Source: Actinomycetes bacterium (lineage in GTDB: Bacteria; Actinomycetota; CALGFH01). Taken from it: a stretch of 64,000 bases of DNA. Location: contig DASYUT010000265.1 of assembly GCA_036000965.1 (NCBI GenBank), positions 24,555 through 88,554 on the forward strand. The letters run 5' to 3'. The position numbers and the translations under genes are program-made. Of this stretch, positions 45,887 to 61,207 are shown one piece after another (within the stretch, counting starts at the first letter, position 1; every line of letters starts with the position of its first letter). The notes beneath the pieces were generated by a model. It saw only the letters and a list, made by a program, of their open reading frames with translations. It had not been told where the DNA came from and ran no database searches.

Positions 45887-46782
45887 CCCATGGCTCCTTG
45901 GAGGTCGAGAAACCGGGTCGGATTCGTGGTGCGGATGGCGTGCGCGGCCGCCGCGCCAAGGCCGGGGTCGCTGGGGAGCGCGTACGGCCGGTCCGAGCCG
46001 AGCACGACGGCGTCGACGCCGAGGACGCGGACCATGGCATCGACCGCACGCGTGCCATAGGAGGAGCTCTCGACGAAGACCTCCGGGTCCACCGTGCCCC
46101 GGTCGCCGCCGCGCGCCCGCAGGCGCTCGCCATGCAGGGGAGCGAGGCCGGCGAGCATCGCGAAGCAGACCCGCAGCCGCGGATGGCGTGGCCGACCGAA
46201 GGCCCGGAAGGCGAACCAGGCGGCATGCATCTGCTGCACGTACGGCACCAGCGCGGGCCACCAGGCTGGGGCTCGGCGCGCTGCCAGCGGGGCGGCGCCC
46301 GGGTGGACGAAGAGCGGGCGGCCGTGGGTCTCGAGCAGGTCGAGCAGCGAGGCGCACCGCTCGTACCCCTGCGCGTCGAGCACCGCGGTCGCGGGGAGCT
46401 GCAGCCCGACGCAGCCGCGGCCCAGTTCCTTGCCGGCCTGGGCGGGGTCGATCTCGCTCAGGCACACCGAAGCCCAGGACAGGAACGGCGTGGGCAGCGC
46501 GAGCACGCCGTCGTGGTAGGTGTCCAGCAGCGGCAGCGCCTCCTCTGGCGGAAGCCATTCGATGCCGAGCGGGCTGGACAGGGATACGAGGACGAGGTCG
46601 AGCCCGTCCTCGCTCGCCTGGGCCTGGCGGCAGGCGACGTCATGGTCGGCAGGATCGACGGCGAAGTCTGGCTGGCCGTCCAGGACGAGGGTCCAGCCGA
46701 CCATCCTCGGCGCGTGCCGACGGCTCCGCAACGCGTCGACGAGCGCGTCGGGCCAGAGGTGCTGATGGACGTCGACGCGCAT
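45883..46782 (-). CDS. Amidohydrolase family 2 protein
   Basis: N-terminal VDVHQHLWP, typical of amidohydrolase_2 (ACMSD-like). GAGGCGG upstream of the ATG at 46782. The stop overlaps the downstream start (ATGA). Confidence 0.75.
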   Translation of the reverse strand: MRVDVHQHLWPDALVDALRSRRHAPRMVGWTLVLDGQPDFAVDPADHDVACRQAQASEDGLDLVLVSLSSPLGIEWLPPEEALPLLDTYHDGVLALPTPFLSWASVCLSEIDPAQAGKELGRGCVGLQLPATAVLDAQGYERCASLLDLLETHGRPLFVHPGAAPLAARRAPAWWPALVPYVQQMHAAWFAFRAFGRPRHPRLRVCFAMLAGLAPLHGERLRARGGDRGTVDPEVFVESSSYGTRAVDAMVRVLGVDAVVLGSDRPYALPSDPGLGAAAAHAIRTTNPTRFLDLQGAMG

Positions 46783-46810: not shown

Positions 46811-46856
46811 TGAGGTTAAGCGATTCAGTGAATCGATTAAGTGAAGCGCTTAACCA
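46811..46856. promoter_or_regulatory. Cluster of LacI-type operator-like palindromes (AAGCGCTT, AATCGATT) in a divergent promoter
   Basis: gttaagcgattcagtgaatcgattaagtgaagcgcttaac lies in a locally AT-richer stretch between the amidohydrolase/CDO operon and the lacI-family gene. Confidence 0.45.
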
Positions 46857-46896
46857 CGGCGGCGTCAAGCCGCCGGAGGCCGGCTGGCGGCTCGCG

Positions 46897-47014: not shown

Positions 47015-47053
47015 TTCCGGGTCGCGACCGGTCGTCTCAGGTAGCCTGTGTCC

Positions 47054-48082
47054 ATGTCGCGGCCACGCAAGCGAGTCACGATCCAGCAGGTCGCCGAGGC
47101 CGTCGGGTTGTCGGCCGCGGCTGTCTCCTACGCCCTGCGCGGAAGCCACGTCTCCAAGGAGACCGAGGAGCGTGTCCGGCGGGTGGCCACCGAGCTGGGC
47201 TACGAGGCACACCCGATCGCCCGCGCGCTGGCGAGCGGCCGCACGAGCATGGTGGGGGTGATCTCGGGCTCGCTGGAGGACCTGTGGCAGCAGCAGGTGA
47301 GCGTCGGCATCGGGCGCGAACTGCTGGCCCGCGACCTGTACGCGCTCATCGTGGACGCGGGGGGCGACCCGGAGCGCGAGCAGGCCCTGGCGCTGCAACT
47401 GCGCGACCAGAGCGTCGACGGTCTCATCCTGTCCCCGCTGGACCCCTCCGCGCCGCTCTGGGCGGACCTCGCCGAGACCCTGCCCGTGGTGGCCATCGGG
47501 GACTCCCTGCAGGGCGCGCGACCGACCGGCGAGGTGCTGTTCGACAACCGGGCGGGCGTGACGCTGGCGCTGGAGCACCTGCACCAGCTCGGGCACCGGC
47601 GCATCGCGGTGCTGACCTCGACCCAGCCCAGCACCCCGGACCGCCCGGCAGACACCTACGTGCTGGCCGAGGCGCGGCGGCTCGGTCTCGACGTCGCCGT
47701 GCGGACCGCGCCCCACTCCCTCGCCGAGGCCACCAAGGTGGCCAGGAAGGTGCTCTCCGCAAACAGCCGGCCCACCGCGCTGTTCTGCTTCTCCGACTCG
47801 ATCGCCTACGGCGGGTATGCGGCAGCCCGGGACCTCTCCCTGCGGATCCCCGCCGACCTGTCGATCACCGGGTACGACAACCACCCGGTGTCGTGCCTGC
47901 TGTCCCCGCCCCTGACGACCTTCGACTGGGACCGCGAGGGGATCATCCGCACGGCGGTCCAGCTCGTGGTCGCCGCCATCAACGGCAGGCCGCGCCGGCG
48001 CCGGGTCGTCAAGACACCCGTGCTGCACCTGCGAGGGTCCACCGGCGCGCCCCCTCGACCCGGACCACGCCGCCGCTCCTGA
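47054..48082 (+). CDS. LacI family transcriptional regulator
   Basis: N-terminal HTH VTIQQVAEAVGLSAAAVSYALRG and a periplasmic-binding-protein-like effector domain. Alternative GTG start at 47048. Confidence 0.8.
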   Translation: MSRPRKRVTIQQVAEAVGLSAAAVSYALRGSHVSKETEERVRRVATELGYEAHPIARALASGRTSMVGVISGSLEDLWQQQVSVGIGRELLARDLYALIVDAGGDPEREQALALQLRDQSVDGLILSPLDPSAPLWADLAETLPVVAIGDSLQGARPTGEVLFDNRAGVTLALEHLHQLGHRRIAVLTSTQPSTPDRPADTYVLAEARRLGLDVAVRTAPHSLAEATKVARKVLSANSRPTALFCFSDSIAYGGYAAARDLSLRIPADLSITGYDNHPVSCLLSPPLTTFDWDREGIIRTAVQLVVAAINGRPRRRRVVKTPVLHLRGSTGAPPRPGPRRRS

Positions 48083-48300
48083 CCAGCTGTCGTTCCTGAC
48101 CGGCCGCCGCTCCCGGCGGCCGCTCCTGACCAGCCGCCGCACCCGACCAGCCGCCGCACCCGACCAGCCGCCGCACCGGACTGGCCGCCGCACCCGACCA
48201 GCCGCCGCACCCGACCAGCCGCCGCACCGGACTGGCCGCCGCACCGGACTGGCCGTCGCACCCGACCAGCCGTCGCACCCGACCCGCCGCGGTTCCCGAC
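48077..48300. repeat. 17-bp tandem repeat array x~12 (gaccagccgccgcaccc) filling the convergent intergenic region
   Basis: Consecutive 17-bp units run from the lacI stop codon to just before the ADH stop. The unit is not a multiple of 3. Confidence 0.85.
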
Positions 48301-48316
48301 CGGGGACGAGACCAGG

Positions 48317-49474
48317 TCACGACGCGGGCACCGCGCCGGCGAGCACCGGATCGAGGATCGCGACCGTGCGCGCCGCCCCGTCGCCCCGGCGGAGGCGGTC
48401 GAACGCCGCCTCGAGGCCGTCGAGGTCGGTGAGGTCGGAGACCCCCGTGGCGAGGTCGAGCAGCCCGTCGGCCGCCAGGCGCGCGAGCTCGGCGACGTCC
48501 GCGGCCGGATCCCCGGACCCGTAGTAGGAGCCCTTGAGGCCCTTCTCGGCGAGCAGCTCGATCCCCGGGACCGCCACCTCCACCCCCTTGGGCACGATCC
48601 CCACCACCACCGCGGTGGCGCCAGGTCGGAGCAGGTCCCAGGCCAGCCGGACCGTTTCGGGCTGCCCGACCACCTCGAACGCGTGGTCGACGCCGACGCT
48701 CGTGAGCCCGAGCGTCGCCGCGACCGGGTCGTCGCGCACCGAGTCCAGCACGTGCGTCGCCCCGGCCGCCAGCGCACGCTCGAGCTTGGCGGGGTCGCGG
48801 TCGACGGCGACAATGGGGTCGGCCCGGGCCAGGCGCGCGCCCGCGACGACCTGCAGGCCGACGCCCCCGCAGCCCACCACCGCCACGCTCTCGCCGGGCT
48901 CCACGCGCGCGGCGTGACGCACCGCGCCGACGCCGGTCACCACACCGCAGCCGATCACGGCCGCCTGCCACAGCGGCAGGACCGGCGGGATCGGGACGGC
49001 CGAACCAGCCGGGACCACGCTGCGCTCGGCGAAGCACGAGACGAAGTTGAAGTGCTTGAGTGGCCGGCCGTCAAGGAGCGACAGGCGCGAGGTCCCGTCG
49101 AGCAGGGTCCCCGCCCAGGACCGGCCGGCCGCCGTCCGGCACAAGTTGCGCCGTCCCGCCAGGCACTCAGGGCAGGTGCCGCAGCTCGGCACGAAGCAGA
49201 ACGCCACCGGGTCACCGGGCGCCACATGACCGACTCCCGCGCCCACCTCCTCGACCACGCCCGAGCCCTCGTGGCCGAGCACGGTCGGCCAGCGCCCATC
49301 CCCGAGGTGCCCCTCGGCGAGGTGCAGGTCGGAGTGGCAGACCCCGGCCGCCGCGACGCGCACGAGCACCTCGCCGGCGCGCGGCGGTTCCAGCCGGACC
49401 TCCTCGACCACGAGGGGCCTCCGGGCCTCGTGCAGCACCGCTGCCCGCACCGTGCGGGTCTCGTGCGCCACCAC
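48317..49474 (-). CDS. Zinc-dependent alcohol dehydrogenase (class III / formaldehyde-dehydrogenase-like)
   Basis: GVCHSDLH, GHEGSG and the structural-zinc Cys cluster CGTCPEC, with Rossmann GCGGVG. The GTG start has GAGG upstream. Confidence 0.8.
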   Translation of the reverse strand: MVAHETRTVRAAVLHEARRPLVVEEVRLEPPRAGEVLVRVAAAGVCHSDLHLAEGHLGDGRWPTVLGHEGSGVVEEVGAGVGHVAPGDPVAFCFVPSCGTCPECLAGRRNLCRTAAGRSWAGTLLDGTSRLSLLDGRPLKHFNFVSCFAERSVVPAGSAVPIPPVLPLWQAAVIGCGVVTGVGAVRHAARVEPGESVAVVGCGGVGLQVVAGARLARADPIVAVDRDPAKLERALAAGATHVLDSVRDDPVAATLGLTSVGVDHAFEVVGQPETVRLAWDLLRPGATAVVVGIVPKGVEVAVPGIELLAEKGLKGSYYGSGDPAADVAELARLAADGLLDLATGVSDLTDLDGLEAAFDRLRRGDGAARTVAILDPVLAGAVPAS

Positions 49475-49480
49475 CGGACC

Positions 49481-50587
49481 TCAGCCGACCCGGTAGGGCT
49501 CGAGGGCCTCGAGGTCGGGGGTGACGCCGAGGCCGGCACCGGGCGGGGGCGCGATCGTGCCGTCGGCGGCGACCTCGACCGGCTCGGGCAGCAGCCAGTC
49601 GCGGCGCTCCGCGGACCACAGCGGTGGGTCGAGCGGCACCTCGACGTACGGGCAGGTCGAGACCGCGAGCGCAAGGTGGAGGTTGGCCACCAGCCCGAGA
49701 CCGTTGCTCCAGGTGTGCGGCGAGAACATCCTGCCGCACAGGCTCGCCAGGGCGGCGATCCGCCGGCACCCGGCGATCCCGCCGGCGAGCACGGCGTCGG
49801 GCTGGACGACGTCGACCCCGCCGCGCAGCACGAGGTCGCGCGCCTCGTGGAGGTGCCGGACCATCTCGCCGGCCGCGAGCCGCATCGACGTGCGGTGTCG
49901 CAGCGCCCTGTAGCCGTCGACGTCGTCGGTCCGCAGCGGCTCCTCGAGCCAGTAGACGCCCAGCCGCTCGAGCTGGGCCGCGCACTGCGCGGCCGTCGGC
50001 ACGTCCCACCGGGGCGTGACGTCGCCGGCCATGCGCCATCCCTGGTTGGCGTCGACCATCAGCTCCACCTGGGAGCCGAGCGCGTCGCGCACCGCCTCCA
50101 CCACCTCGAGGTCGCGCCGCCAGTCGTGGTGGAAGCGCAGCTTCACCGCGCGGATGCCTCGCTGCTGCAGCTCCTTGACCCGACGCACCCGCTCCTCGGG
50201 CTCCACCAGCTCGCCGGTGGACGCATAGGCCACCAGCCGCTCCGAGCGCCCCCCGAGCAGCTGCCACAGCGGCAGGCCGAGCGCCCGCCCGACCAGGTCC
50301 CAGACGGCCACCTCAACGGTCCACGGGCGACCGCCGTGGAAGTCCACGGTCTCGCACAGCTCGAGGACGCGCTCGGTCCGCCGCGGGTCCACGCCGACCA
50401 GCAGCGCCTCGAGCTGGCGGGCGTCGGGCAGGTGGCCGCCGCTCGCGTAGCCGGCGAGCCCGTCGTCGGCGCGCACCACCACGATGGTGGCGTCGAGCGC
50501 CGCGCGGGGCGCCGGGTCCCAGGCGGCCCGGAACGCCGGCTCGAGCCGCGCGCGGTAGCGGCGGGTCTCGACGGCCGCGATGCGCAC
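49481..50587 (-). CDS. Enolase-superfamily enzyme (mandelate racemase / muconate lactonizing enzyme family)
   Basis: The MR/MLE N-terminal and C-terminal barrel domains carry conserved metal ligands (KLRFHHDW...VDANQGW...EEP...). GTG at 50587. Confidence 0.75.
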   Translation of the reverse strand: MRIAAVETRRYRARLEPAFRAAWDPAPRAALDATIVVVRADDGLAGYASGGHLPDARQLEALLVGVDPRRTERVLELCETVDFHGGRPWTVEVAVWDLVGRALGLPLWQLLGGRSERLVAYASTGELVEPEERVRRVKELQQRGIRAVKLRFHHDWRRDLEVVEAVRDALGSQVELMVDANQGWRMAGDVTPRWDVPTAAQCAAQLERLGVYWLEEPLRTDDVDGYRALRHRTSMRLAAGEMVRHLHEARDLVLRGGVDVVQPDAVLAGGIAGCRRIAALASLCGRMFSPHTWSNGLGLVANLHLALAVSTCPYVEVPLDPPLWSAERRDWLLPEPVEVAADGTIAPPPGAGLGVTPDLEALEPYRVG

Positions 50588-50605
50588 CCTCAGTCACCCC
50601 CACCC

Positions 50606-51127
50606 TCAGTCGCCCCCGTAGAAGGGCGTGCTCGCGGCCTCGCGGCGCGCCGCCAGCGCGGTGACCTCCTCTGCAGAGGGAGGCCGCAGCGCGTCGGCGA
50701 GCGCGCGGAAGGTGGCGCTGCGGCTGGCCTTGCGGACCGCGGTCTCGTCGTGGGCGGCGGGGTCGATCCAGACCGCGACGAGCAGCAGCAGCTCGGCCGC
50801 GTCACCAGGGTCGACCATCCCCTCGGCGACCGCGTCGAGCACGCCCTGGGCGATTCCGAGCTGGGCCGCGCCCCAGACGAGCCGGGACTGGGCCTGGTCC
50901 TCGAGCGGCGCCTTGTTCACGACCACGGTGGTGGGGCGCACCATCGCCCCACGCTCGAGGCAGGCGATGAACGGCAGGTGCCCGGGGCGCGGCGAAGCGA
51001 GCGCGGCCGCCACCGCGGCGCCCGTGGCCGAGCCGCGACGGGCCGCGACGACGTTGACGTGGCTGCCGTTGGGGTCCTCGCCGGCCCAGCCCTCGCCGAT
51101 GCGCCCGTCCACGGGGTCGGTGCCCAT
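50606..51127 (-). CDS. Formaldehyde-activating enzyme (Fae) family protein
   Basis: Collinear similarity to Fae: GEGWAGEDPNGSHVNVV...RGS, LDAVAEG and a C-terminal TPFY. The ATG is preceded by GGAGG, created by a 19-bp duplication of the upstream gene's end. Confidence 0.6.
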   Translation of the reverse strand: MGTDPVDGRIGEGWAGEDPNGSHVNVVAARRGSATGAAVAAALASPRPGHLPFIACLERGAMVRPTTVVVNKAPLEDQAQSRLVWGAAQLGIAQGVLDAVAEGMVDPGDAAELLLLVAVWIDPAAHDETAVRKASRSATFRALADALRPPSAEEVTALAARREAASTPFYGGD

Positions 51128-51146
51128 CACGCCTCCTTCACCGGGG

Positions 51147-52319
51147 TCATGCCTCCTTCACCGGAGTGCCTGCGCCGCCGGCCGGCCGCCGCCGCCGGCG
51201 TCGCTGCCGCCGCCGGGGCTCGAGCAGGACCCGGCGCGCCCCGCCCGAGCGTAGCAGCGCGAACGCTGCCTCGACCTCCTCGAGCGGCAAGCGGTGTGAG
51301 ATCAGGCGGTCGAGCGGGAGGCGCCCCGAGCGGTACAGCCCGAGGATCGTGGGGAAGTCCCGCGCCGGCTGCGTCGAGCCGTACGCGCTGCCGAGCACCC
51401 GGCGTTCCATCCGGGGGACCGAGAGCGCGGGCAGGCGCAGCTCGGCGTCGGCGCGCGGGATCCCCACCAGGACCGCGGCGCCGCGCGCGCGCGTCGACAG
51501 GAACGCCGCCTCGGCCACCTCGGGCCGGCCGCTGGCCTCGACCGCGTAGTCCACCCCGCCGCCGCTCGCCGCGCGCACCGCCTCGGCGGTCGCCTCAGGG
51601 TCGCCGGCCCAGCGCACGGCGTCGGTCGCGCCCAGCGCCAGGGCCGCCTCGAGCTTCTCGGGCGAGACGTCGACGGCCAGCACCGGTGCGGCGCCGGCCG
51701 CGACCGCGCCGAGGATGGCGGACAGCCCCACTCCGCCGCAGCCGAGCACGGCGACGCGCTCGCCCGGGCGCACGCCCGCGGTGTTCCAGACCGCCCCGAC
51801 GCCGGTCGCGACCGCGCACCCGACGAGCGCCGCCACCTCCAGCGGTACGTCCGCGTCGACCGGCACGCACGAGCGCTCGGCCACTACCGCGCGCTCGGCG
51901 AAAGTCGACAGCAGCGAGTAGTGGTAGACGGGCTCGCCCTGGCGCGACAGGCGCGGCGTGCCGTCGAGCAGGCCGCCGTGGCCCATGGCCCCCCAGGCCG
52001 TGCGGCACAGGTGGGCGAGGCCCCGCAGGCACTCCTCGCAGCGCCCGCACCACGGGATCCAGGAGAGCGCCACCGGCTGGCCGGGACGGAGCGCCACGCC
52101 CGGCCCCGCCTGCTCCACCACCCCGGCGCCCTCATGCCCCAGCACGACAGGGCAGCGTGTGGGCGCGGTGCCGTCGATGGCGTTGAGGTCGGAGTGGCAC
52201 ACGCCGCTGGCGTGGAGCCGCACGAGCACCTCGCCCGGCCCGGGCGGGGCGAGCTCGACCTCGGTCACTTCGAGCCTGGCGCCGGTCTCGGGCAGCACGA
52301 CGGCGAGGACCGTCGTCAC
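51147..52319 (-). CDS. Zinc-dependent alcohol dehydrogenase (second copy)
   Basis: GVCHSDLN, GHEGAG, CGRCEEC and GCGGVG. The GTG at 52319 overlaps the ATPase stop (GTGA). Confidence 0.75.
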   Translation of the reverse strand: MTTVLAVVLPETGARLEVTEVELAPPGPGEVLVRLHASGVCHSDLNAIDGTAPTRCPVVLGHEGAGVVEQAGPGVALRPGQPVALSWIPWCGRCEECLRGLAHLCRTAWGAMGHGGLLDGTPRLSRQGEPVYHYSLLSTFAERAVVAERSCVPVDADVPLEVAALVGCAVATGVGAVWNTAGVRPGERVAVLGCGGVGLSAILGAVAAGAAPVLAVDVSPEKLEAALALGATDAVRWAGDPEATAEAVRAASGGGVDYAVEASGRPEVAEAAFLSTRARGAAVLVGIPRADAELRLPALSVPRMERRVLGSAYGSTQPARDFPTILGLYRSGRLPLDRLISHRLPLEEVEAAFALLRSGGARRVLLEPRRRQRRRRRRPAGGAGTPVKEA

Positions 52320-54514
52320 GGCCCGGGCTCGGCCGTCACGCTCCCTGTCGCGCCCAGCTGCAGGCGCCGCAGCTCCTCGATGGGGATGTGGCAGCGTATG
52401 AGGTGGCCGGGCTCGACCTCGGCCAGCAGGGGCTCGCTCTGCTCGCAGATCGGGCCCAGCTTGCGGGGGCAGCGCGTGTGGAACACGCAGCCCGAGGGCG
52501 GGGAGGCGGCGCTCGGGATCTCGCCGGAGAGCCGGATGCGCTCGCGAGTCCCGCCGCGGCCCTGCTCCTGGCCGTGGCCGGTGGCCAGGATCGGCGCCGC
52601 CGACAAGAGCGCCTCGGTGTAGGGGTGGTGGGGCCCCCGGAACACGACGTCGGCCGGGCCCACCTCCATCAGGCGCCCGAGGTACAGCACCGCGATCCGG
52701 TCGGCGACGAAGCGCACCACGCCCAGGTCGTGGGAGATGAACAGGTAGGTGACGCCCTCGTCGCGCTGCAGGTCCACCAGCAGGTTGAGGATCGCGGCCT
52801 GCACCGAGACGTCGAGCGCGGAGGTGGGCTCGTCGCACACCACCACACGGGGCTCCCCGGCGAACGCACGGGCGATGGCCACACGCTGCTTGAGGCCCCC
52901 CGAGAGCTGTGCCGGCTTGGCGTCGAGCGCGGGCCGGTCGAGCCGGACCGAGCGCGTCAGCTCCATGATGCGCCGCTCGCGCTCGTCGCCGCGCAGCCCC
53001 AGGAGCTTGGCCAGCGCCCGGCCGATGATCCGGTGCACCGAGTGCCGGCGGTTGAGCGAGGAGTCGGGGTTCTGGAACACGATCTGGATCTCGCGCACCT
53101 GCTCCGGCGAGCGGTGCACGATCCTGGGATCCAGCGGCGCGTCGTCCAGCTCGACGACCGAGCCCTTGTCGGGTCCGGTGAGCCCGAGCAGCGACCGTGC
53201 CAGGGTGGTCTTGCCGCTGCCCGACTCGCCCACGAGGCCGAGCACCTCCCCGCGCCGGATCGCGAGCGAGATGTCGGTGAGCGCCTGCACCTCGCGCCCC
53301 TCCTGGTGGAACGTCTTGGACAGGTGGTCCAGCCGCACGACCGGCCCTGCCGCAGCCGGTGCCCCGGCGTCCGGCCGACCGTCCCCGCCCGGGCCCCGCG
53401 CGCCGGCGGGGGCCTCCCGCGCCGCCGAGGGCGGACCATCGCCGCCAGGGCCCCGCGCGCCGGCGGGCACCTCCCGCTCGACCGAGACCGGGAGCTCCTG
53501 GGCTCGCTCGTGGAAGAAGCAGCGGCTCTGGTGGCCGGCGCCCGTCTCGTAGAGGGCCGGCTCCTCCTGGCGGCAGCGCTCCTCGGCCAGCCCGCAGCGG
53601 TCGGCGAACACACACCCCGGGATCACCGCCCCGATGGGCGGGGGGAACCCGGGGATGGTGTCGAGCACGCCCCGGTCCTTGCTGTCGCCCCACTTGGGGA
53701 CGGCTCGCAGCAGGCCCACGGTGTAGGGGTGGCGCGGGTCGCCGAGCAGCGTGCTGGTCGCACCCTCCTCCACCAGCCGTCCGGCGTACAGGACCCCGAT
53801 GCGGTCGCACATGCGCGCGATCACGCCGAGGTTGTGGCTGATGAACAGCACGCTCGTCTGGTACTCGCGCCGCAGCGCCGCCACCAGGTCGAGCACCTCC
53901 GCCTCCACCGTCGCGTCGAGCCCGGTGGTGGGCTCGTCGAGGATCAGCAGCGAGGGGTTGGCCGCCAGCGCCATCGCGATGACCACCCGCTGCTGCATGC
54001 CGCCGGAGAGCTGGTGGGGGTAGCGGCGCATCACGCCAACGGGGTCGGAGATCTGGACCTTCTGGAGCATCGCGCGGGCACGCTGGTGCGTCTCGTCCTT
54101 GGCCGTGCCCAGGACCCGGAAGGACTCGGCCACCTGGTCGCCAACCCGGATCGAGGGGTTCAGGGCGGTCCCGGGGTTCTGGTAGACCATCGAGACGGTA
54201 TGGGAGCGCAGCCGCCTGAGCCCCTCCTCGTCCATGCGGAACAGGTCGGCGCCGTCGATGCGGATCTCGCCCGACGTCACCCGCGCGTTGCGGGGCAGGT
54301 AGCGCATGGCGGCGAAGGCGACCGTGGACTTGCCGCAGCCGGACTCGCCGACCAGCCCGTAGGACTCGCCGCGGGCCACCTCGAAGCTGACGCCGCGGAC
54401 AGCCTCCCGGTCCCTGCCCCGCACGCGGTAGGCGAGCCTGAAGTCCGACACCTCGAGGGCCGGGACGGCCGCGGGCACGGTGGCACCGGGCTCGAGCGGC
54501 GCAGCGGCGCTCAC
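52316..54514 (-). CDS. ABC transporter ATP-binding protein, fused duplicated ATPase (DppD-DppF / OppD-OppF type)
   Basis: Two complete NBDs (GESGCGKST...LSGGMQQRVVIAMAL...LILDEPTTGLD and GESGSGKTT...LSGGLKQRVAIARAF...VVCDEPTSALD), each with a C-terminal oligopeptide-type extension. The GTG overlaps the permease stop. Confidence 0.85.
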   Translation of the reverse strand: MSAAAPLEPGATVPAAVPALEVSDFRLAYRVRGRDREAVRGVSFEVARGESYGLVGESGCGKSTVAFAAMRYLPRNARVTSGEIRIDGADLFRMDEEGLRRLRSHTVSMVYQNPGTALNPSIRVGDQVAESFRVLGTAKDETHQRARAMLQKVQISDPVGVMRRYPHQLSGGMQQRVVIAMALAANPSLLILDEPTTGLDATVEAEVLDLVAALRREYQTSVLFISHNLGVIARMCDRIGVLYAGRLVEEGATSTLLGDPRHPYTVGLLRAVPKWGDSKDRGVLDTIPGFPPPIGAVIPGCVFADRCGLAEERCRQEEPALYETGAGHQSRCFFHERAQELPVSVEREVPAGARGPGGDGPPSAAREAPAGARGPGGDGRPDAGAPAAAGPVVRLDHLSKTFHQEGREVQALTDISLAIRRGEVLGLVGESGSGKTTLARSLLGLTGPDKGSVVELDDAPLDPRIVHRSPEQVREIQIVFQNPDSSLNRRHSVHRIIGRALAKLLGLRGDERERRIMELTRSVRLDRPALDAKPAQLSGGLKQRVAIARAFAGEPRVVVCDEPTSALDVSVQAAILNLLVDLQRDEGVTYLFISHDLGVVRFVADRIAVLYLGRLMEVGPADVVFRGPHHPYTEALLSAAPILATGHGQEQGRGGTRERIRLSGEIPSAASPPSGCVFHTRCPRKLGPICEQSEPLLAEVEPGHLIRCHIPIEELRRLQLGATGSVTAEPGP

Positions 54515-55401
54515 CGTTCGAACACCTGGGTGAGCGCGTCGGAGACGAGGTTCACGCCGACGACCAGGCTGGCGATGGCGATGGCCGGGAACAGCGTCGG
54601 CCACCAGATGCCGCCCGGGAGGAACCCGTAGTCGTTGAAGATCGTGACCCCCCAGTCCGGCGCGGGCGGCTGGATGCCGAACCCCAGGAACGACAGCGTG
54701 GCGATCAGAAAGATCGCATAGCCGAGCCGCACCGTGAACTCCACCAGGATCGGCGCGGTCACGTTGGGCAGGATCTCCACGAACATGACGTAGGGCGCGC
54801 GCTCGTTGCGGAGCTTGGCCGCCTGCACGTACTCGAGCTCGCGTTCGGCGAGCACCGCGGCCCGCACGGTGCGGGCGATGATCGGGGTGAACACGAGCCC
54901 GATCACCACGATCACCGTGACGTTCGACGGGCCGAGCGCCACCAGCGCGAGCAGCCCGACGACCACCGCCGGCAGCGCGAGGACGGCGTCGACCACGCGC
55001 ATGAGGATGTCGTCGACTGCGCCGCGGTAGTAGCCCGTCACGAGCCCGATGGCGGTCCCGGCGACCGTGCCGATCGCGGTCGCGAGCGGGGCGACGACGA
55101 GGATGCCCCGCGCGCCCGCGATGACCCGCGAGAACACGTCCCGGCCGAGCTCGTCGGTCCCGAACCAGTTGCTCGACGACGGCCGGGCGAGCCGGTGGAG
55201 CACGTTGACCGCGAAGGGGTCGTGCGTCTCGATCAGGCTGCCGAAGACCGCGCACACGACCCAGAACCCGACGACCACCGCCCCCACCAGGAAGGTGGGC
55301 GAGCGGCGCAGCACGCGCCAGCGCTCCCCGCGGACGGCCCGCCGCCCCTGCCTGCCGCGGACGCTGTCGAGCTCGGCCGAGACCTGTTCGCCGACGCTCA
55401 T
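54511..55401 (-). CDS. ABC transporter permease (DppC/OppC-like)
   Basis: TM permease with the BPD_transp_1 signature region. Confidence 0.8.
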   Translation of the reverse strand: MSVGEQVSAELDSVRGRQGRRAVRGERWRVLRRSPTFLVGAVVVGFWVVCAVFGSLIETHDPFAVNVLHRLARPSSSNWFGTDELGRDVFSRVIAGARGILVVAPLATAIGTVAGTAIGLVTGYYRGAVDDILMRVVDAVLALPAVVVGLLALVALGPSNVTVIVVIGLVFTPIIARTVRAAVLAERELEYVQAAKLRNERAPYVMFVEILPNVTAPILVEFTVRLGYAIFLIATLSFLGFGIQPPAPDWGVTIFNDYGFLPGGIWWPTLFPAIAIASLVVGVNLVSDALTQVFER

Positions 55402-55420
55402 TCCACACCCCTATGGACGC

Positions 55421-56374
55421 TCATTCCGTGCCCCCGTAGCGGATGCGCGGGTTGAGCAGCGAGTAGCCGATGTCGGCGAGCAGCGTGGTCAGCAGGTACA
55501 CGATCCCCATCACCATCACCGTGCCCTGCAGCAGGGGGAAGTCCTTCTTCGTGGCGGCCAGGAAGGTCAGCTGTCCGATCCCCTGGTAGTTGAAGATGAC
55601 CTCGATCACCACCAGCCCGCCGATGAGGTAGCCGGTCTGGGTGGCGACCACCGCGATCGTCGGCAGCAGCGCGTTGCGGAGCACGTGGCGGAAGATCACG
55701 GTCCGCTGCGAGATCCCCTTGAGCACCGCGGTGCGGGTGTAGTCGGCGTCCAGCGCCTCGATCATGCCCGCACGGGTGATCCGGGCGATGTAGCCGAACA
55801 GCACGAACACCAACGGGATCGCGGGCAGGAGGAGGTAGCGCAGCTGCGTGCCGGGCCCGCTTCCCCTGGGGGCCTGGGCGGTGACCGGGAGCCACTGCAG
55901 CTGCACGGCGAACACCAGGATGACCACGATGCTCCAGACGAACTCGGGCACCACGGTGGCGGACAGGCCGCCCACCGTCACGACGCGGTCCACCGCCCGG
56001 CCGTGGGAGAGCCCGGCCGCGATCCCGCCGAGGATGCCGAGCGGCACCACCAGCACGAACGCCACGAGCGCGAGCTTGAGCGAGTTGAGCAGCGCCGACC
56101 CGAGCAGCGAGGACACGGGGACCTGGAAAGAGAGCGACTCGCCCAGGTCACCACGCACCGCGCCGGACAGCCAGTCCCAGTACTGCACCGCGATGGGCCG
56201 GTCCGTCCCCAGCCGCTGGTTCAGAGCGGCGACGGCCTCGGGTGCGGCGAAGGGCCCCAGGATGCGGCGGCCGACGTCACCGGGGAGCACCTGCATCCCG
56301 ACGAAGACGATGGTCGCGAGCAGCCAGAGCGTCAGCACCGCAAGCCCGACGCGCCGGAGGACGAACCGGCCCAT
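55421..56374 (-). CDS. ABC transporter permease (DppB/OppB-like)
   Basis: TM permease with the EAA motif region. Upstream partner of the DppC-like gene. Confidence 0.8.
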   Translation of the reverse strand: MGRFVLRRVGLAVLTLWLLATIVFVGMQVLPGDVGRRILGPFAAPEAVAALNQRLGTDRPIAVQYWDWLSGAVRGDLGESLSFQVPVSSLLGSALLNSLKLALVAFVLVVPLGILGGIAAGLSHGRAVDRVVTVGGLSATVVPEFVWSIVVILVFAVQLQWLPVTAQAPRGSGPGTQLRYLLLPAIPLVFVLFGYIARITRAGMIEALDADYTRTAVLKGISQRTVIFRHVLRNALLPTIAVVATQTGYLIGGLVVIEVIFNYQGIGQLTFLAATKKDFPLLQGTVMVMGIVYLLTTLLADIGYSLLNPRIRYGGTE

Positions 56375-56526
56375 GCCTTACCTCACTCGTTCCTGTCTGA
56401 TGGCTGTCGCTGGGAACTCATCTACCGGTAGTCCTCGTTCGATGTGGGGGGAGCTCGCTCCCCCCACGGCCCCCCAAGAGCGCCTGTGCCATGGTCGGGG
56501 TACTCGGCGAATCCATCGGACAGGCC

Positions 56527-58212
56527 CTAGGCCAGTTGCCCTGCCTTGGTGAGCCGGATGTGGCCCATGGCCGTTGGCTCCACCCCGGCGATGTTGGTCT
56601 GCGTCGCGCTCATGTGGAAGTGGAAGTACGGGAAGAGGACCGGCGACTCATCCAGCAGCAGCTGCTCGATCTTTGCCGCAGCGGCCTTCTGCGCCTGCAC
56701 CTCGACCGCGGCCACGTACTGCTTGACCAGCGCGTCGTAGTCCTTGTTGTGGAAGTGCGCCGAGTTCCACGGGCCGCTCGAGGTGAGCGGGGCGCTGAGG
56801 AACACGTTGGGCACGCCGCGGTGGCCGTAGTCGGTGATCCCCATGGTCGAGTCGAGCCAGGGCGACTTCCCGAACACCGCCGACCCGTAGTAGGTGCTCG
56901 GGTTGGTCACGCTGAGGTTGATCGTGCCGCCGACCTGCTGCACCGCCTGCTTGATCGTCTGCGCGAGCAGCGGGATCTCGTAGCCGTTCCAGGTCGCGAG
57001 CGTCACCGTGAAGCTGGACTTCCCCGCGTCGGCGAGCAGCTGCTTGGCCTTGTCGACGTCCTTCGCGCGCTGCGCGACGGACGTGTCGGTCGAGGGGAAG
57101 ACAGGGGCGAACGGCGAGTCGTTGCCCATGTCGCCCTTGCCGCTCAGCAACCCCTGGACCAGCGCCGGGCGGTCCAGCAGCAGGGCGATGGCCTGCCGCA
57201 CCCGCTTGTCGGTGAAGGGCTCCTTGTCGGTGCGCATGTGCACCTGCCGGTGCGCGGCCGAGCGCAGCTCCAGGACCTTGACGTTGGGGTTGTTGAACAG
57301 GGGCTGGCCGGTGGAGGCGGAGAACTGGCTCACCACGTCGAGCTGCTTGCTCTGCAGTGCGAGCACGCGCGGCTGCTCGTCGGCGTAGAACTTGAGCGTG
57401 ACGGTGTCCAGGATGGGCGACCCCGCCTGCCAGTAGCTGGGGTTCTTCGCGTAGGCCACCTCCGACCCGGTCTTGAAGCTCGTCATCTTCCAGGGGCCCG
57501 TCCCGACGAACGAGGTCTCGTACTTGCCGCCGTAGTCGTAGTTGGCCGGCAGGATGATCGTGTTGTAGTTGTCCGAGCTCACCAGGTAGGGGAAGTTCCC
57601 GTTCGGGGCGTCGAGGTGGAAGGCCACCGTCTGGTCGTCGACCACCTGGACCCCGGCCGGCTTCAGCACCCCGGCGAACGCCGAGAGCGCGCTCGAGCCC
57701 CCCTTGGGGTCGGAGTGGGTCTTGAAGGTCTTTGCAACGTCCTCGGCCTTCAGCGGCTGGCCGTTGTTGAAGGTCACGCCCTGGCGGATCTTGAAGGTCC
57801 ACACCGAGCCGTCGGCGTTGGGCGACCAGCTCTCCGCGAGGACGGGCTGCAGGTTGAGCTTCTCGTCCGACCAGGTGAGGTACTCGCCGGCCTGCCCGAG
57901 CACGGCCAGCCCCCCCTCGTCGGCCACCGTGAGGGGGTTGACGGCCGCCGAGGGGGCGATGATCCCGACGGTCATCGTGCCGCCCTTCTTGACGGCCCCG
58001 GTGGCGCTGCTCCCGGTGGTCCCAGGCGTCGACGACCCCCCGCAGGCCGCAGCCAGGAAGCCGAGCACTCCCATCGACATCCCGAGCACCGTCCCACGCC
58101 GGATGAACTCCCGCCGCGAGATCCTGCCGGCGACCAGCTCGTCGATCAGGTGGTTGTCGAGCTCGGTCCGGCGGGCCCGAACCTCGTCGACCCGGCGCTG
58201 CAACTCCTCCAT
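56527..58212 (-). CDS. ABC transporter substrate-binding protein, family 5 (DppA/OppA/NikA-like), Tat/lipoprotein signal
   Basis: Tat-like SRREFIRRG, then the lipobox LAAACGG. SBP_bac_5 fold. GGAGGTG lies 6 nt upstream of the ATG at 58212. Confidence 0.8.
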   Translation of the reverse strand: MEELQRRVDEVRARRTELDNHLIDELVAGRISRREFIRRGTVLGMSMGVLGFLAAACGGSSTPGTTGSSATGAVKKGGTMTVGIIAPSAAVNPLTVADEGGLAVLGQAGEYLTWSDEKLNLQPVLAESWSPNADGSVWTFKIRQGVTFNNGQPLKAEDVAKTFKTHSDPKGGSSALSAFAGVLKPAGVQVVDDQTVAFHLDAPNGNFPYLVSSDNYNTIILPANYDYGGKYETSFVGTGPWKMTSFKTGSEVAYAKNPSYWQAGSPILDTVTLKFYADEQPRVLALQSKQLDVVSQFSASTGQPLFNNPNVKVLELRSAAHRQVHMRTDKEPFTDKRVRQAIALLLDRPALVQGLLSGKGDMGNDSPFAPVFPSTDTSVAQRAKDVDKAKQLLADAGKSSFTVTLATWNGYEIPLLAQTIKQAVQQVGGTINLSVTNPSTYYGSAVFGKSPWLDSTMGITDYGHRGVPNVFLSAPLTSSGPWNSAHFHNKDYDALVKQYVAAVEVQAQKAAAAKIEQLLLDESPVLFPYFHFHMSATQTNIAGVEPTAMGHIRLTKAGQLA

Positions 58213-59471: not shown

Positions 59472-59620
59472 GTCCAGTTCCTCCTCTGGCTCCCAGTGGT
59501 GACGAGGCCGGCAGGCGGCATTGTCGTCGAAGCGGGACGTCGGGCGGGCCCTCCTGCCTAGCCGGCCCAGCCGCTCATCGGTCGCCCGCTGGCCGTCGAG
59601 CTCCGCGGGCGGGCTCGAGG

Positions 59621-61198: not shown

Positions 61199-61207
61199 CT
61201 CGCCTCC

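What the first reader, a model, noticed from the sequence alone, without database searches (positions are those of the whole stretch)
48317..58212. Fae-like formaldehyde-activating enzyme embedded between two Zn-ADHs, an enolase-superfamily enzyme and a Dpp-type ABC importer, with an LLM oxidoreductase downstream
Fae homologues normally act with H4MPT in methylotrophs. Here an Fae-like gene is chained to its neighbours by GTGA and near-overlaps, in an operon with a formaldehyde-DH-like ADH, a second ADH, an MR/MLE enolase and a peptide/opine-type ABC importer. A LacI regulator lies on the other side of a tandem-repeat array, beyond the 3' end of the operon. This hints at uptake and oxidation of a compound that releases formaldehyde, an uncommon context for Fae.
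Basis: partly seen in the sequence, partly recalled or inferred. Interest (0 to 1): 0.55.

Follow-up and report, generated by a model that had tools for sequence, protein, structure and literature searches.

The report
Non-canonical Fae-like enzyme in catabolic operon
The operon is real and conserved across dozens of uncultured soil actinobacteria (class Thermoleophilia), but its Fae-like protein belongs to an uncharacterised branch of the formaldehyde-activating-enzyme family that always sits next to alcohol/aldehyde dehydrogenases and nutrient importers, also in non-methylotrophs, so it probably does something other than classical methanopterin-dependent formaldehyde capture.

Summary
An eight-gene minus-strand operon (48317-58212) encodes a Dpp-type ABC importer, a Zn-ADH, a 173/174-aa Fae-family protein (Pfam E=7e-37; AF2 model TM 0.87-0.92 to PDB 1Y60), an enolase-superfamily enzyme and a second Zn-ADH.

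The ADH-Fae-MR/MLE-ADH block recurs in most of 80 related species-level genomes. Nearly all are Thermoleophilia MAGs.

The Fae-like protein keeps the catalytic His. It falls below the NCBIfam Fae equivalog cut-off, is only about 28-30% identical to M. extorquens Fae, and carries its own signature (PNGSH.N, GH.P...C, W.DP).

The same clade occurs in cultured Bacillaceae beside a BCCT transporter, an ADH of the same subfamily and an SSADH-like aldehyde dehydrogenase. Sister 'H.N' Fae-likes in Streptomyces, Burkholderia/Caballeronia and Ensifer sit in 'oxidoreductase + Fae-like + SSADH-like ALDH + transporter' modules.

No H4MPT-linked gene was seen in the window or in the annotated related contexts. 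The 'formaldehyde-DH-like' label for the ADH is not supported. The LLM gene is not conserved.

Best reading: an H4MPT-independent Fae-family hydro-lyase acts on a carbonyl intermediate made by its partner dehydrogenase during catabolism of an imported polar, probably nitrogenous, compound. The substrate is unknown. This is a new variant of a known kind, of moderate interest.

The parts
56527..58212 (-). Family-5 (Dpp/Opp/Nik/opine-type) substrate-binding protein with an N-terminal signal/lipobox-like segment
   Evidence: Pfam SBP_bac_5 E=4e-77. All NCBIfam equivalogs are below cut-off. Nearest PDB entry is 5U4O, E=4.5e-47, with an unnamed ligand. Conserved upstream of the block in most related loci.
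55421..56374 (-). ABC permease 1 (DppB-like)
   Evidence: Pfam BPD_transp_1 plus BPD_transp_1_N.
54511..55401 (-). ABC permease 2 (DppC-like)
   Evidence: Pfam BPD_transp_1 plus OppC_N. Its stop overlaps the ATPase start as GTGA.
52316..54514 (-). Fused double ATPase (DppD-DppF); the linker contains a 57-bp x 2 repeat
   Evidence: Two ABC_tran and two oligo_HPY domains. NF008453 scores 538 bits. Repeat found.
51147..52319 (-). Zn-dependent MDR alcohol dehydrogenase ADH1 (class I/III-like). It belongs to a subfamily that co-occurs with the Fae-like clade. It carries an Arg-rich C-terminal tail created by local repeats.
   Evidence: Pfam ADH_N plus ADH_zinc_N. Below every NCBIfam cut-off. 44-50% identical to most of the ADHs next to Fae-likes in Bacillota, 40% to one. 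An ADH lies directly upstream of Fae in 56 of 74 loci.
50606..51130 (-). Non-canonical Fae-family protein (likely start ATG 51127, 173 aa)
   Evidence: PF08714 E=6.9e-37. TIGR03126 scores 101.5, below the 118.05 cut-off. Matches 1Y5Y/1Y60 by sequence and fold. Clade signature and invariant His24 shown.
49481..50587 (-). Enolase-superfamily (MR/MLE) enzyme. [quoted passage not shown] It has a KxR motif in place of KxK.
   Evidence: MR_MLE_C E=2e-60. 4GGB/4HPN E=2.4e-37; the identity of 4GGB is confirmed in PMC5698469. In 46 of 46 homologues K164, D194, E220, E246 and H296 are kept and K166 is replaced by R. Lies directly downstream of Fae in 62 of 73 loci.
48317..49474 (-). Second Zn-dependent MDR alcohol dehydrogenase ADH2, a paralogue of ADH1 (46% identity)
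   Evidence: An ADH follows the MR/MLE gene in 46 of 67 loci.
48058..48301 (.). 17-bp x 14.5 tandem repeat between the convergent 3' ends of LacI and ADH2
   Evidence: TRF score 253; sequence read. No function is assigned.
47048..48082 (+). LacI-family regulator, a candidate regulator linked by synteny only
   Evidence: Pfam LacI plus Peripla_BP_3. A homologue lies within 10 kb of the Fae-like gene in 13 of 57 loci. In the compact variants (L033, L036, L042-L044, L046, L059) it lies about 3 kb upstream of the Fae-like gene, at the head of a same-strand LacI-FAD-oxidase-cupin run.
46816..46853 (.). Cluster of LacI-type operator-like half-palindromes (TTAAGCGATTCA / TGAATCGATTAA / TGAAGCGCTTAA) in the divergent Amidohydro_2-LacI promoter region
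   Evidence: The window holds 5 matches against 1.15 expected. None lies upstream of the SBP gene.
45883..46782 (-). Amidohydrolase_2-type protein (HxH motif 'VDVHQHLWP') divergent from LacI, a frequent companion of the block
   Evidence: Sequence read; this ORF itself was not scanned against Pfam. No NCBIfam match. A homologue lies within 10 kb of the Fae-like gene in 25 of 57 loci. Homologues called in L002/L004 carry Pfam PF04909.

Best explanation
This is a conserved catabolic operon of an uncultured, very GC-rich actinobacterium, most likely of class Thermoleophilia.

Shown:
- A Dpp-type ABC importer is co-transcribed with two paralogous NAD(P)-type Zn-ADHs, an enolase-superfamily enzyme and a protein with the Fae fold.
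- The Fae-like protein has the catalytic His. It belongs to a distinct, uncharacterised 'H.N' branch of the Fae family.
- Across several phyla and classes, that branch is embedded in 'transporter + alcohol/aldehyde oxidoreductase + Fae-like + (usually) SSADH-like aldehyde dehydrogenase' modules. No H4MPT-linked C1 genes accompany it.

Inferred:
- The enzyme does not use H4MPT.
- It applies the family's chemistry to a pathway intermediate. That chemistry is acid-catalysed interconversion of carbonyl + amine, carbinolamine and iminium (a hydro-lyase reaction).
- Proposed sequence: ADH1 oxidises a hydroxyl of the imported polar, probably nitrogen-bearing compound to a carbonyl. The Fae-like enzyme then forms or splits the C-N (or C-O) adduct at that carbonyl and releases the amine part. 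The resulting (hydroxy)aldehyde/lactol is oxidised by ADH2; in other lineages an SSADH-like ALDH does this. The product is ring-opened or dehydrated by the MR/MLE enzyme.
- The Amidohydro_2 protein and LacI are accessory.
- The actual substrate is unknown.
For: - Operon anatomy and translational coupling.
- Fae family, fold and His.
- Divergence from canonical Fae: TIGR03126 below cut-off; 28-30% identity to M. extorquens Fae; clade-specific invariant residues (N26 for Asp24, H51, P53, C57, W121, D123, Y171).
- Conservation in 80 genome loci: ADH upstream 56/74, MR/MLE downstream 62/73, second ADH 46/67, ABC importer 46/62.
- Same clade in cultured Bacillaceae, as IclR | ADH-BCCT-Fae-ALDH.
- Bacillota-like contigs with an OpuA-type ABC importer and two ADHs.
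- The ADHs beside the Fae-likes form one subfamily.
- Sister Fae-likes: Streptomyces has OsmF-type ABC-Fae-HIBADH-like-SSADH. Burkholderia/Caballeronia has Fae-AKR-SSADH-MFS. Ensifer has AKR-Fae-ALDH-LysR-Dpp-type ABC.
- The nine ALDHs compared from these modules are mutually 40-73% identical (up to 89% within a genus); those scanned with NCBIfam (Halobacillus, two Streptomyces) are SSADH-like. The Ensifer ALDH has only a Pfam assignment.
- The oxidoreductase family is replaced non-orthologously (Zn-ADH, HIBADH, AKR) while the Fae-like and the ALDH stay. This argues that the Fae-like is a pathway enzyme.
- Three independent betaine/amine-type importer families (BCCT, OpuA, OsmF) point to cationic or zwitterionic N-compounds. 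No other enzyme in the compact modules could cut C-N.
- No H4MPT, folate or demethylase genes were seen in the window or in the annotated contexts (12-14, 44, 46, 52, 53, 84, 85, 77, 78, 90, 91).
- Published work states that the functions of non-canonical Fae groups are unknown (PMC11748545).
Against: - Everything about mechanism is inference from gene context and family chemistry. No substrate, cofactor or activity was tested.
- The Thermoleophilia operon lacks the ALDH and uses a Dpp-type importer, so it may not do the same job as the Bacillota, Streptomyces or proteobacterial modules.
- The typical substrates of BCCT/OpuA are quaternary ammonium compounds. They cannot form iminium ions, so a different chemistry would be needed, for example nucleophilic displacement by the clade-specific Cys57.
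- Whole genomes could not be searched, so H4MPT or other pterin pathways elsewhere in these organisms are not excluded.
- The retained His is equally compatible with genuine formaldehyde activation.
Confidence: 0.4

Rival explanations
1. The protein is a true formaldehyde-activating enzyme that couples formaldehyde released during catabolism of the imported compound to a carrier other than H4MPT (tetrahydrofolate, a thiol such as mycothiol or bacillithiol, or an amine). ADH1 then oxidises the adduct.
For: - Fae fold and catalytic His are kept.
- ADH1 and ADH2 are nearest to, though below the cut-offs of, the mycothiol/glutathione formaldehyde-dehydrogenase and NDMA-ADH families.
- An H4F-linked role has been suggested in the literature for a Fae paralogue (PMC11748545).
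- BHMT-like and other methyl-group or amino-acid catabolic genes lie near the cluster in some Thermoleophilia loci.
Against: - No formaldehyde-releasing enzyme is present in the core operon or in the compact 3-4 gene modules of other lineages.
- No folate, thioester-hydrolase or formate-dehydrogenase genes are adjacent.
- The ADHs fail all formaldehyde-dehydrogenase equivalog cut-offs and lack the GSH-binding residues.
- The constant partner elsewhere is an SSADH-like ALDH, not a C1 enzyme.
Confidence: 0.22
2. Canonical function. The protein is an H4MPT-dependent Fae feeding a methylene-H4MPT oxidation pathway encoded elsewhere in the genome.
For: - Pfam and NCBIfam best hits are Fae.
- JGI annotates homologues as 5,6,7,8-tetrahydromethanopterin hydro-lyase.
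- A ComA-like methanogen-type cofactor gene is present in the window, although it belongs to coenzyme M chemistry, not H4MPT.
Against: - The score is below the TIGR03126 equivalog cut-off.
- Asp24 is replaced by Asn, and the 47-57 and 121-124 segments differ from all canonical Fae sequences.
- No mch, mtd, ftr/fhc or H4MPT-biosynthesis families were found in the window or in the annotated loci.
- The clade is present in Bacillaceae and its sisters in Streptomyces, groups not known to make H4MPT. A review reports that the H4MPT pathway is absent from B. methanolicus and A. methanolica (PMC8879981).
Confidence: 0.05
3. Aldehyde-handling accessory. The pathway is a plain hydroxy-acid / sugar-acid oxidation (dehydrogenase, lactonase, enolase-type dehydratase, dehydrogenase). 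The Fae-like protein only speeds hydration/dehydration or lactol/ring-chain interconversion of the reactive (semi)aldehyde intermediate, or sequesters it. It cleaves no C-N bond.
For: - The MR/MLE enzyme is closest to lactone cycloisomerases and acid-sugar dehydratases.
- Amidohydro_2, a family that includes sugar lactonases (stated from general knowledge), and a LacI regulator are frequent companions.
- Transporter + oxidoreductase + SSADH would already be a complete omega-hydroxy-acid pathway.
- SDR (KduD-like), GlcD-like and FGGY-kinase genes accompany some modules.
Against: - Betaine-type importers (BCCT, OpuA, OsmF) are not expected for anionic hydroxy acids.
- No precedent was found in the PDB or is known to me for a dedicated enzyme of this kind. 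This was not specifically searched in the literature.
- The strict conservation of the Fae-like gene inside minimal modules suggests an essential step.
Confidence: 0.18
4. Non-catalytic role (sensor or regulator of aldehyde stress), as has been speculated for Fae paralogues.
For: Published work lists regulatory or sensing roles among the suggestions for Fae-like groups 2-4.
Against: - The gene is tightly coupled translationally inside an enzyme operon.
- The catalytic His and many pocket-like residues are invariant across phyla.
- Dedicated LacI, IclR or LysR regulators are already present.
Confidence: 0.05

Closest known systems
Formaldehyde-activating enzyme Fae of Methylorubrum extorquens AM1 (PDB 1Y5Y/1Y60; PF08714, TIGR03126)
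   Same: - Same fold: TM 0.84-0.92.
- Same length.
- Conserved His (His22 in Fae, His24 here) and family-wide residues E13, R32, P66, T68, N72, K73, G87, Q90, D99.
   Different: - Only 28-30% identity, and below the equivalog cut-off.
- Asp24 is replaced by Asn. The 'NNKHGFTSLLAV' segment is replaced by 'SPRPGHLPFIAC', and 'FIHW' by 'WIDP'.
- Gene context contains no H4MPT-linked C1 genes. Instead it holds ADHs, an enolase-superfamily enzyme and an ABC importer.
Fae paralogues of methylotrophs (Fae1-2, Fae2, Fae3; 'groups 2-4' in PMC11748545)
   Same: Non-canonical Fae-family proteins of unknown function. Fae3 fails to complement a fae mutant, and Fae1-2 does so only on solid medium, not in liquid culture.
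   Different: - Those paralogues occur in methylotrophs that also have canonical Fae and H4MPT.
- The present clade is in Thermoleophilia and Bacillaceae, with a fixed ADH partner.
- Its relation to groups 2-4 was not resolved here.
Gfa + glutathione-dependent formaldehyde dehydrogenase (Paracoccus) / mycothiol-dependent formaldehyde dehydrogenase
   Same: The gene pair has the same outline: an 'activating' enzyme next to a class-III-like Zn-ADH.
   Different: - Gfa is an unrelated Zn protein.
- ADH1 and ADH2 fail the curated models and lack the Asp55/Glu57/Arg114 equivalents.
- No thioester hydrolase is present.
[quoted passage not shown]
   Same: These are the nearest solved relatives of the operon's MR/MLE enzyme. 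Metal ligands D/E/E and the His acid/base are conserved.
   Different: The general-base Lys166 is Arg in all 46 homologues. The substrate is unknown.
Onium-compound catabolic clusters built as 'BCCT + lyase/oxygenase + dehydrogenase + semialdehyde dehydrogenase' (DMSP dddTBCD; carnitine cntAB clusters), recalled from memory and not tested
   Same: The architecture matches the Bacillaceae module: BCCT, alcohol dehydrogenase, SSADH-like ALDH, one 'unknown' enzyme, and in Domibacillus a malic enzyme.
   Different: - No DddD or CntAB homologue is present; the Fae-like protein would have to fill that role.
- The window's operon uses a Dpp-type importer and has no ALDH.

Membership tests
Fae family (Pfam PF08714) | Profile match above the gathering threshold over the full domain | tested here: met
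   E=6.9e-37, 127.3 bits against a cut-off of 27, profile positions 1-151 of 159.
Fae family (Pfam PF08714) | Fae alpha/beta fold | tested here: met
   AF2 model with pLDDT 92. Foldseek against 1Y60/1Y5Y gives E about 1e-17 and TM 0.84-0.92. No other meaningful hit.
Fae family (Pfam PF08714) | Catalytic His (His22 of M. extorquens Fae; its role as acid catalyst is recalled from the 2005 structure paper, which could not be read here) | tested here: met
   His24 aligns with His22 and is invariant in 64 clade members.
Functional Fae (5,6,7,8-tetrahydromethanopterin hydro-lyase; NCBIfam TIGR03126 equivalog) | Score above the curated equivalog cut-off | tested here: not met
   101.5 bits against a cut-off of 118.05.
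Functional Fae (5,6,7,8-tetrahydromethanopterin hydro-lyase; NCBIfam TIGR03126 equivalog) | Canonical motif residues around the active site (H-x-D; GF.S..V; F.HW) | tested here: not met
   The clade has H-x-N, GH.P...C and W.DP. Canonical representatives (at least 41% identical to M. extorquens Fae) keep H-x-D and F.HW.
Functional Fae (5,6,7,8-tetrahydromethanopterin hydro-lyase; NCBIfam TIGR03126 equivalog) | Genomic association with H4MPT-linked C1 genes (mtdB, mch, fhc) or H4MPT biosynthesis | tested here: not met
   None in the parts of the 64-kb window scanned with Pfam or in the Pfam- or record-annotated loci L001-L004, L085-L090, L092-L095, L097 and L098. Only local context could be examined.
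Functional Fae (5,6,7,8-tetrahydromethanopterin hydro-lyase; NCBIfam TIGR03126 equivalog) | Presence of H4MPT in the organism; catalysis of formaldehyde + H4MPT condensation | not testable with these tools
Class III ADH / S-(hydroxymethyl)glutathione or -mycothiol dehydrogenase | Score above the curated equivalog cut-offs (TIGR02818, TIGR03451) | tested here: not met
   ADH1 scores 267.7 against 543.95 and 281.6 against 512.9. ADH2 scores 267.6 and 244.5.
Class III ADH / S-(hydroxymethyl)glutathione or -mycothiol dehydrogenase | Glutathione-adduct binding residues (Asp55, Glu57, Arg114 of human ADH5; residue list and sequence recalled from memory) | tested here: not met
   The alignment shows A/T/W in ADH1 and non-equivalent residues in ADH2 and in the Bacillota ADHs.
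Medium-chain Zn-dependent ADH (MDR) superfamily | ADH_N and ADH_zinc_N domains, catalytic Cys/His/Cys and a structural four-Cys zinc site | tested here: met
   Pfam domains. The CHSD, GHEG, CxxCxxC...C and GC motifs are visible in the alignment.
Enolase superfamily, mandelate-racemase subgroup | Three carboxylate metal ligands, KxK on strand 2 and a His (with Asp) on strands 7/6 | tested here: inconclusive
   D194, E220, E246, H296 and K164 are conserved. K166 is Arg in 46 of 46 homologues. All NCBIfam equivalogs are below cut-off.
Dpp/Opp-type (PepT family) ABC importer | SBP_bac_5 binding protein, two BPD_transp_1 permeases, and two ABC ATPase domains with oligo_HPY C-terminal regions | tested here: met
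   NF008453 scores 538 bits against a cut-off of 408 for the ATPase. Substrate specificity is not assignable, because all SBP equivalogs are below cut-off.
LacI regulon of the adjacent regulator | A LacI-type palindromic operator upstream of the regulated operon | tested here: not met
   Operator-like sites occur only at 46816-46853, between Amidohydro_2 and LacI. None lies in 58190-58600 upstream of the SBP gene.

The most novel reading that the evidence does not exclude
The 'H.N' branch of the Fae family is a new kind of cofactor-independent C-N (amine/onium) hydro-lyase. Together with a partner NAD-dependent dehydrogenase and an SSADH-type aldehyde dehydrogenase (or, in Thermoleophilia, a second ADH plus an enolase-superfamily enzyme), it would form a widespread oxygen- and flavin-independent route for stripping the amine from hydroxylated amines or betaines. 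Examples would be carnitine- or gamma-butyrobetaine-like compounds or amino-acid/sugar conjugates, with release of trimethylamine or amino acids in soils and saline habitats.
Probability: 0.2. Interest if true: 0.8.

Novelty: new variant of a known kind. Interest (0 to 1): 0.55.

Why it matters
Genes called 'fae' are widely used as markers of methylotrophy and formaldehyde oxidation in metagenomes. One MAG study reports 12 non-methylotroph MAGs with fae and no other methylotrophy genes (PMC10994693).

This clade is abundant in soil Thermoleophilia. More than 3000 hits were found, and 140 relatives were found among species-representative genomes. Automatic annotation names it 5,6,7,8-tetrahydromethanopterin hydro-lyase.

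If it is H4MPT-independent, those marker-based inferences are wrong for a dominant soil lineage. It would also mean that a conserved and cheaply testable catabolic module remains to be assigned. That module is present in cultured Halobacillus, Domibacillus, Streptomyces clavuligerus, Burkholderia/Caballeronia and Ensifer. It could represent a new way of degrading amine or betaine-type osmolytes.

Tried and rejected
- Literature searches found no description of this cluster or clade. The Fae structure paper (JBC 2005) is not held, so H4MPT-contact residues could not be mapped.
- The listing of cluster members on ten family representatives gave only unnamed metagenome proteins.
- Rfam scan of 45000-64000 found no riboswitch that could name the ligand; there was only one chance hit on a GC hairpin.
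- Promoter/terminator consensus scans were uninformative at 74% GC.
- A LacI operator was looked for upstream of the operon and not found.
- The LLM oxidoreductase was considered as a Mer-like H4MPT enzyme and rejected. It is closest to the Rv2161c F420 family (135 bits, below cut-off), scores only about 32-35 bits against the Mer models, and is absent from all related loci.
- ADH1 as a glutathione/mycothiol formaldehyde dehydrogenase was rejected.
- MR/MLE as a dipeptide epimerase, which would match the Dpp importer, is not favoured. Acid-sugar dehydratase and lactone-cycloisomerase models score far higher (142 bits against 65).
- Plasmid homologues of the MR/MLE enzyme (Paroceanicella, Halorussus) have no Fae-like neighbour and gave no functional clue.
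- My own GC3-based ORF calling on the MAG loci was noisy. The tblastn-based counts are therefore lower bounds.

Full report
**1. What is in the sequence**

The window is about 70-78% G+C, so gene calls were made with third-position GC.

Between 48317 and 58212 eight genes lie head-to-tail on the minus strand:
- a family-5 substrate-binding protein (56527-58212);
- two permeases (55421-56374 and 54511-55401);
- a fused DppD/DppF ATPase (52316-54514);
- a Zn-dependent alcohol dehydrogenase, ADH1 (51147-52319);
- a Fae-family protein (50606-51130);
- an enolase-superfamily MR/MLE protein (49481-50587);
- a second Zn-ADH, ADH2 (48317-49474).

The junctions fit one transcript. permease2/ATPase and ATPase/ADH1 overlap as GTGA. 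The other enzyme genes are 6-19 bp apart and preceded by Shine-Dalgarno-like GGAGG or GGGTGG sequences.

A LacI-family gene (47048-48082, + strand) converges on the 3' end of the operon. A 17-bp x 14.5 tandem array (48058-48301) lies between them.

The luciferase-like (LLM) gene at 58587-59471 lies 5' of the operon on the same strand. The Fae-like start is more likely the ATG at 51127, because homologues are 171-173 aa. The LLM gene is upstream, not downstream.

**2. The Fae-like protein**

It matches Pfam Fae over the whole domain (E=6.9e-37). By sequence it matches the M. extorquens Fae structure (E=8e-18). By predicted fold (pLDDT 92) it matches 1Y60/1Y5Y with TM 0.84-0.92, and nothing else in the PDB is comparable.

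The His that aligns with Fae His22 is invariant in 64 relatives.

The protein is nevertheless not a standard Fae:
- It scores 101.5 bits against the NCBIfam equivalog model, whose cut-off is 118.05.
- It is only 28-30% identical to M. extorquens Fae.
- It carries a distinct signature: PNG[SV]H.N instead of ..AH.D, GH.P...C instead of GF.S..V, W.DP instead of F.HW, and a C-terminal N.FY.G.

In a search of 1.84 billion cluster representatives the whole family has only 609 clusters at E<=1e-3. Many non-canonical representatives share the H.N / GHP / W[DN]P pattern. Canonical ones (at least 41% identical to M. extorquens Fae) keep H.D / F.HW.

A 2024 paper states that only the canonical bacterial and archaeal Fae groups have a defined function. 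The other groups, including sequences from firmicutes and actinomycetes, are of unknown function (PMC11748545).

**3. Conservation of the operon**

The nearest relatives (62-94% identity, more than 3000 hits) are almost all from metagenomes. A scan of one genome per GTDB species found 140 relatives. The best 80 are nearly all MAGs of Thermoleophilia (Thermoleophilaceae, Solirubrobacteraceae, Gaiellales).

tblastn of the window's proteins against these loci gave the following counts:
- an ADH directly upstream of the Fae-like gene in 56 of 74 loci with enough flank;
- the MR/MLE gene directly downstream in 62 of 73;
- a further ADH after it in 46 of 67;
- the ABC importer within 8 kb upstream in 46 of 62;
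- an Amidohydro_2 like window 45883-46782 within 10 kb in 25 of 57;
- the LacI homologue in 13 of 57;
- the LLM gene in 0 of 57.

Gene calls with Pfam labels on four long contigs show the same order.

A compact variant has Amidohydro_2 divergent from a same-strand run of LacI, a GlcD-like FAD oxidase and a cupin. The Fae-MR/MLE-ADH2 block follows about 3 kb downstream of LacI, and an ADH1-like gene lies further on. This variant has no importer.

The core of the system is therefore ADH-Fae-MR/MLE-ADH, usually with the Dpp-type importer. LacI and Amidohydro_2 are frequent companions. The LLM gene is a chance neighbour.

**4. The partner enzymes**

ADH1 and ADH2 are 46% identical paralogues with all MDR zinc motifs. 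Their best curated matches are the Rxyl_3153 NDMA-ADH, mycothiol-FDH and class III ADH models. All scores are far below the cut-offs: 244-304 bits against 440-544.

The residues that bind the glutathione adduct in human ADH5 are not conserved (the ADH5 sequence and residue list are from memory). 'Formaldehyde-DH-like' is therefore not supported.

The MR/MLE protein is closest to 4GGB/4HPN, which is D-galactaro-1,4-lactone cycloisomerase of A. tumefaciens (PMC5698469). It is also close to acid-sugar dehydratase models.

All 46 homologues from the related loci keep the three metal ligands, Lys164 and His296. All have Arg in place of the general base Lys166. This is a subfamily-specific deviation whose meaning is unknown.

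**5. The clade outside Thermoleophilia**

Two of the 80 genome hits were cultured Domibacillus species (47% identity). A second protein search found the clade in Bacillus sp. F19 (on a plasmid), Peribacillus simplex, Halobacillus salinarum, H. campisalis and Pontibacillus salicampi.

In these organisms the module is an IclR regulator plus Zn-ADH, BCCT transporter, Fae-like and aldehyde dehydrogenase. It is either one operon or two divergent units.

The ADH is 49% identical to ADH1 and belongs to the same subfamily. The ALDH is SSADH-like: TIGR01780 scores 625 bits against a cut-off of 646.

Related metagenomic contigs show two further arrangements:
- ADH-Fae-OpuA-type ABC-ALDH-ADH;
- Fae-ALDH-ADH-ADH-SDR-GlcD-like-FGGY kinase.

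A tblastn search of annotated plasmids found more distant 'H.N' Fae-likes (34-43% identity to the window protein). All sit in the same kind of module:
- S. clavuligerus megaplasmid: OsmF-type glycine-betaine ABC importer, Fae-like, HIBADH-family dehydrogenase, SSADH.
- Streptomyces sp. NBC_01562: SSADH and IclR divergent from Fae-like and an HIBADH-like gene, with MFS, SDR, GlcD-like and FGGY genes nearby.
- Burkholderia sp. YI23 and Caballeronia grimmiae: Fae-like, aldo/keto reductase, SSADH, MFS.
- Ensifer adhaerens: aldo/keto reductase, Fae-like, ALDH, LysR, Dpp-type ABC.

The nine ALDHs compared (Ensifer not included) are 40-73% identical to each other across genera and up to 89% within a genus. 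No ALDH is encoded in the 64-kb window.

**6. What this implies**

*Shown.* A non-canonical Fae branch is embedded in small catabolic modules in Actinomycetota, Bacillota and Alpha- and Betaproteobacteria. The Fae-like gene and, outside Thermoleophilia, an SSADH-like ALDH stay constant. The alcohol/aldehyde oxidoreductase is exchanged between unrelated families (Zn-ADH, HIBADH, AKR). The transporter is exchanged between BCCT, OpuA/OsmF-type ABC, MFS and Dpp-type ABC.

None of the modules, and none of the parts of the window scanned with Pfam, contains H4MPT-linked, folate-linked or demethylating enzymes (and the context calls above).

*Inferred.* The Fae-like protein is a pathway enzyme rather than a formaldehyde scavenger. 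The compact modules contain nothing that could make formaldehyde. Three different betaine/amine-type importers imply a cationic or zwitterionic nitrogen compound, and no other encoded enzyme could remove that nitrogen.

Fae accelerates an otherwise spontaneous carbonyl-amine condensation (PMC8879981). The His-catalysed carbinolamine-to-iminium step is recalled from the 2005 structure paper. The most economical proposal is therefore the same chemistry on a pathway intermediate:
- The dehydrogenase creates a carbonyl.
- The Fae-like enzyme makes or breaks the C-N (or C-O) adduct.
- The ALDH, or ADH2 plus MR/MLE in Thermoleophilia, processes the carbon skeleton.

Candidate substrates are illustrations only, not results. 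They include carnitine- or gamma-butyrobetaine-like compounds, beta-hydroxy amines, and amino-acid/sugar conjugates.

For quaternary ammonium compounds iminium chemistry is impossible. A different mechanism would be required, for example attack by the clade-specific Cys57 on an alpha-ammonio ketone. This is a weakness of the model.

**7. Rivals**

- A genuine formaldehyde-activating role with tetrahydrofolate or a thiol remains possible. The His is kept, and the ADHs are distantly FDH-like.
- A canonical H4MPT role is unlikely, given the failed equivalog test, the altered motifs, the gene context and the occurrence in Bacillaceae and Streptomyces. It cannot be excluded without whole genomes.
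- A purely accessory aldehyde-handling role in a hydroxy-acid or sugar-acid pathway fits the MR/MLE, Amidohydro_2 and LacI genes. It fits the betaine-type importers poorly.

**8. Verdict**

The specific interpretation (H4MPT-type formaldehyde activation coupled to a formaldehyde dehydrogenase, with LLM and LacI as parts of the system) is only partly supported.

The finding is best filed as a new variant of a known kind: an uncharacterised, widely distributed Fae subfamily with a conserved dehydrogenase partnership.

It matters because 'fae' is used as a methylotrophy marker, and because the module is present in cultivable bacteria where its function can be tested directly. Interest 0.55.

Noticed in passing
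window 13866-23007: A cluster of five genes: Amidohydro_2 (13866-14759 +), radical SAM (14707-15918 +), an AIR-synthase-related protein (16443-17570 -), ComA / (2R)-phospho-3-sulfolactate synthase (17477-18301 +, Pfam E=1e-77) and a fumarase/argininosuccinate-lyase-family protein (20710-23007 +). ComA together with an aspartase/fumarase-type lyase recalls bacterial coenzyme M or sulfolactate chemistry, which is unusual for an actinobacterium.
   Followed up: no
window 42518-42605, 44933-45088, 46898-47009, 48058-48301, 51127-51216, 53373-53486, 60108-60222: The region is rich in short tandem repeats. Intergenic arrays: 17 bp x 14.5, 16 bp x 7.2, 36 bp x 3. In-frame coding repeats: GSGQ repeats at the N-terminus of a PotA-like ATPase, SDAHGAx repeats inside ORF 42733-45366, and a 57-bp duplication in the ATPase linker. 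A 20-bp duplication copies the ribosome-binding site in front of the Fae-like start. Together with a 17-bp x 3 repeat, it gives ADH1 an Arg-rich 16-18 aa C-terminal tail that homologues lack.
   Followed up: partly
window 42733-45366 (-): A long ORF combines an arginase-family C-terminal segment with a histidine-ammonia-lyase-like domain (NF006871, 262 bits, below cut-off). HAL-like genes recur near the Fae cluster in about 23 related loci. The fusion may be real or may reflect an over-extended ORF.
   Followed up: partly
window 39237-42799 and 60248-63980: The operon is flanked by other nitrogen-compound uptake and catabolism genes. On one side is a PotD/PotA-type ABC system, identified by reading the translations only. 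On the other side are a second Amidohydro_2 (60248-61198), an arginase-family ureohydrolase (61208-62224), DUF1989 (62257-62919) and an NCS1-like permease (62985-63980). In related Thermoleophilia loci the neighbours include genes that, judged by eye from the translations, look like BHMT-type methyltransferase, MetE-like, M20 peptidase, ornithine-cyclodeaminase-like, IclR and hydantoinase-like genes. Cysteine-dioxygenase-type (CDO_I), IclR and PALP neighbours also have Pfam support.
   Followed up: partly
window 56439-56465: A G+C-rich hairpin lies in the 152-bp gap between the substrate-binding-protein gene and the first permease gene. It produced a weak chance Rfam hit (blv_FSE, E=0.8). Such hairpins after SBP genes commonly stabilise the 5' part of the ABC operon transcript (stated from general knowledge).
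   Followed up: no
L094 6136-9873; L089 2109-6003; L036 7245-8962: In some modules, genes for a KduD-like SDR, a GlcD-like FAD oxidase and an FGGY-family kinase (L094, L089), or a GlcD-like FAD oxidase plus a small cupin (L036), travel with the Fae-like gene. This is seen in a Bacillota-like contig, Streptomyces sp. NBC_01562 and compact Thermoleophilia variants. It hints at an additional small polyol or hydroxy-acid branch of the pathway.
   Followed up: partly
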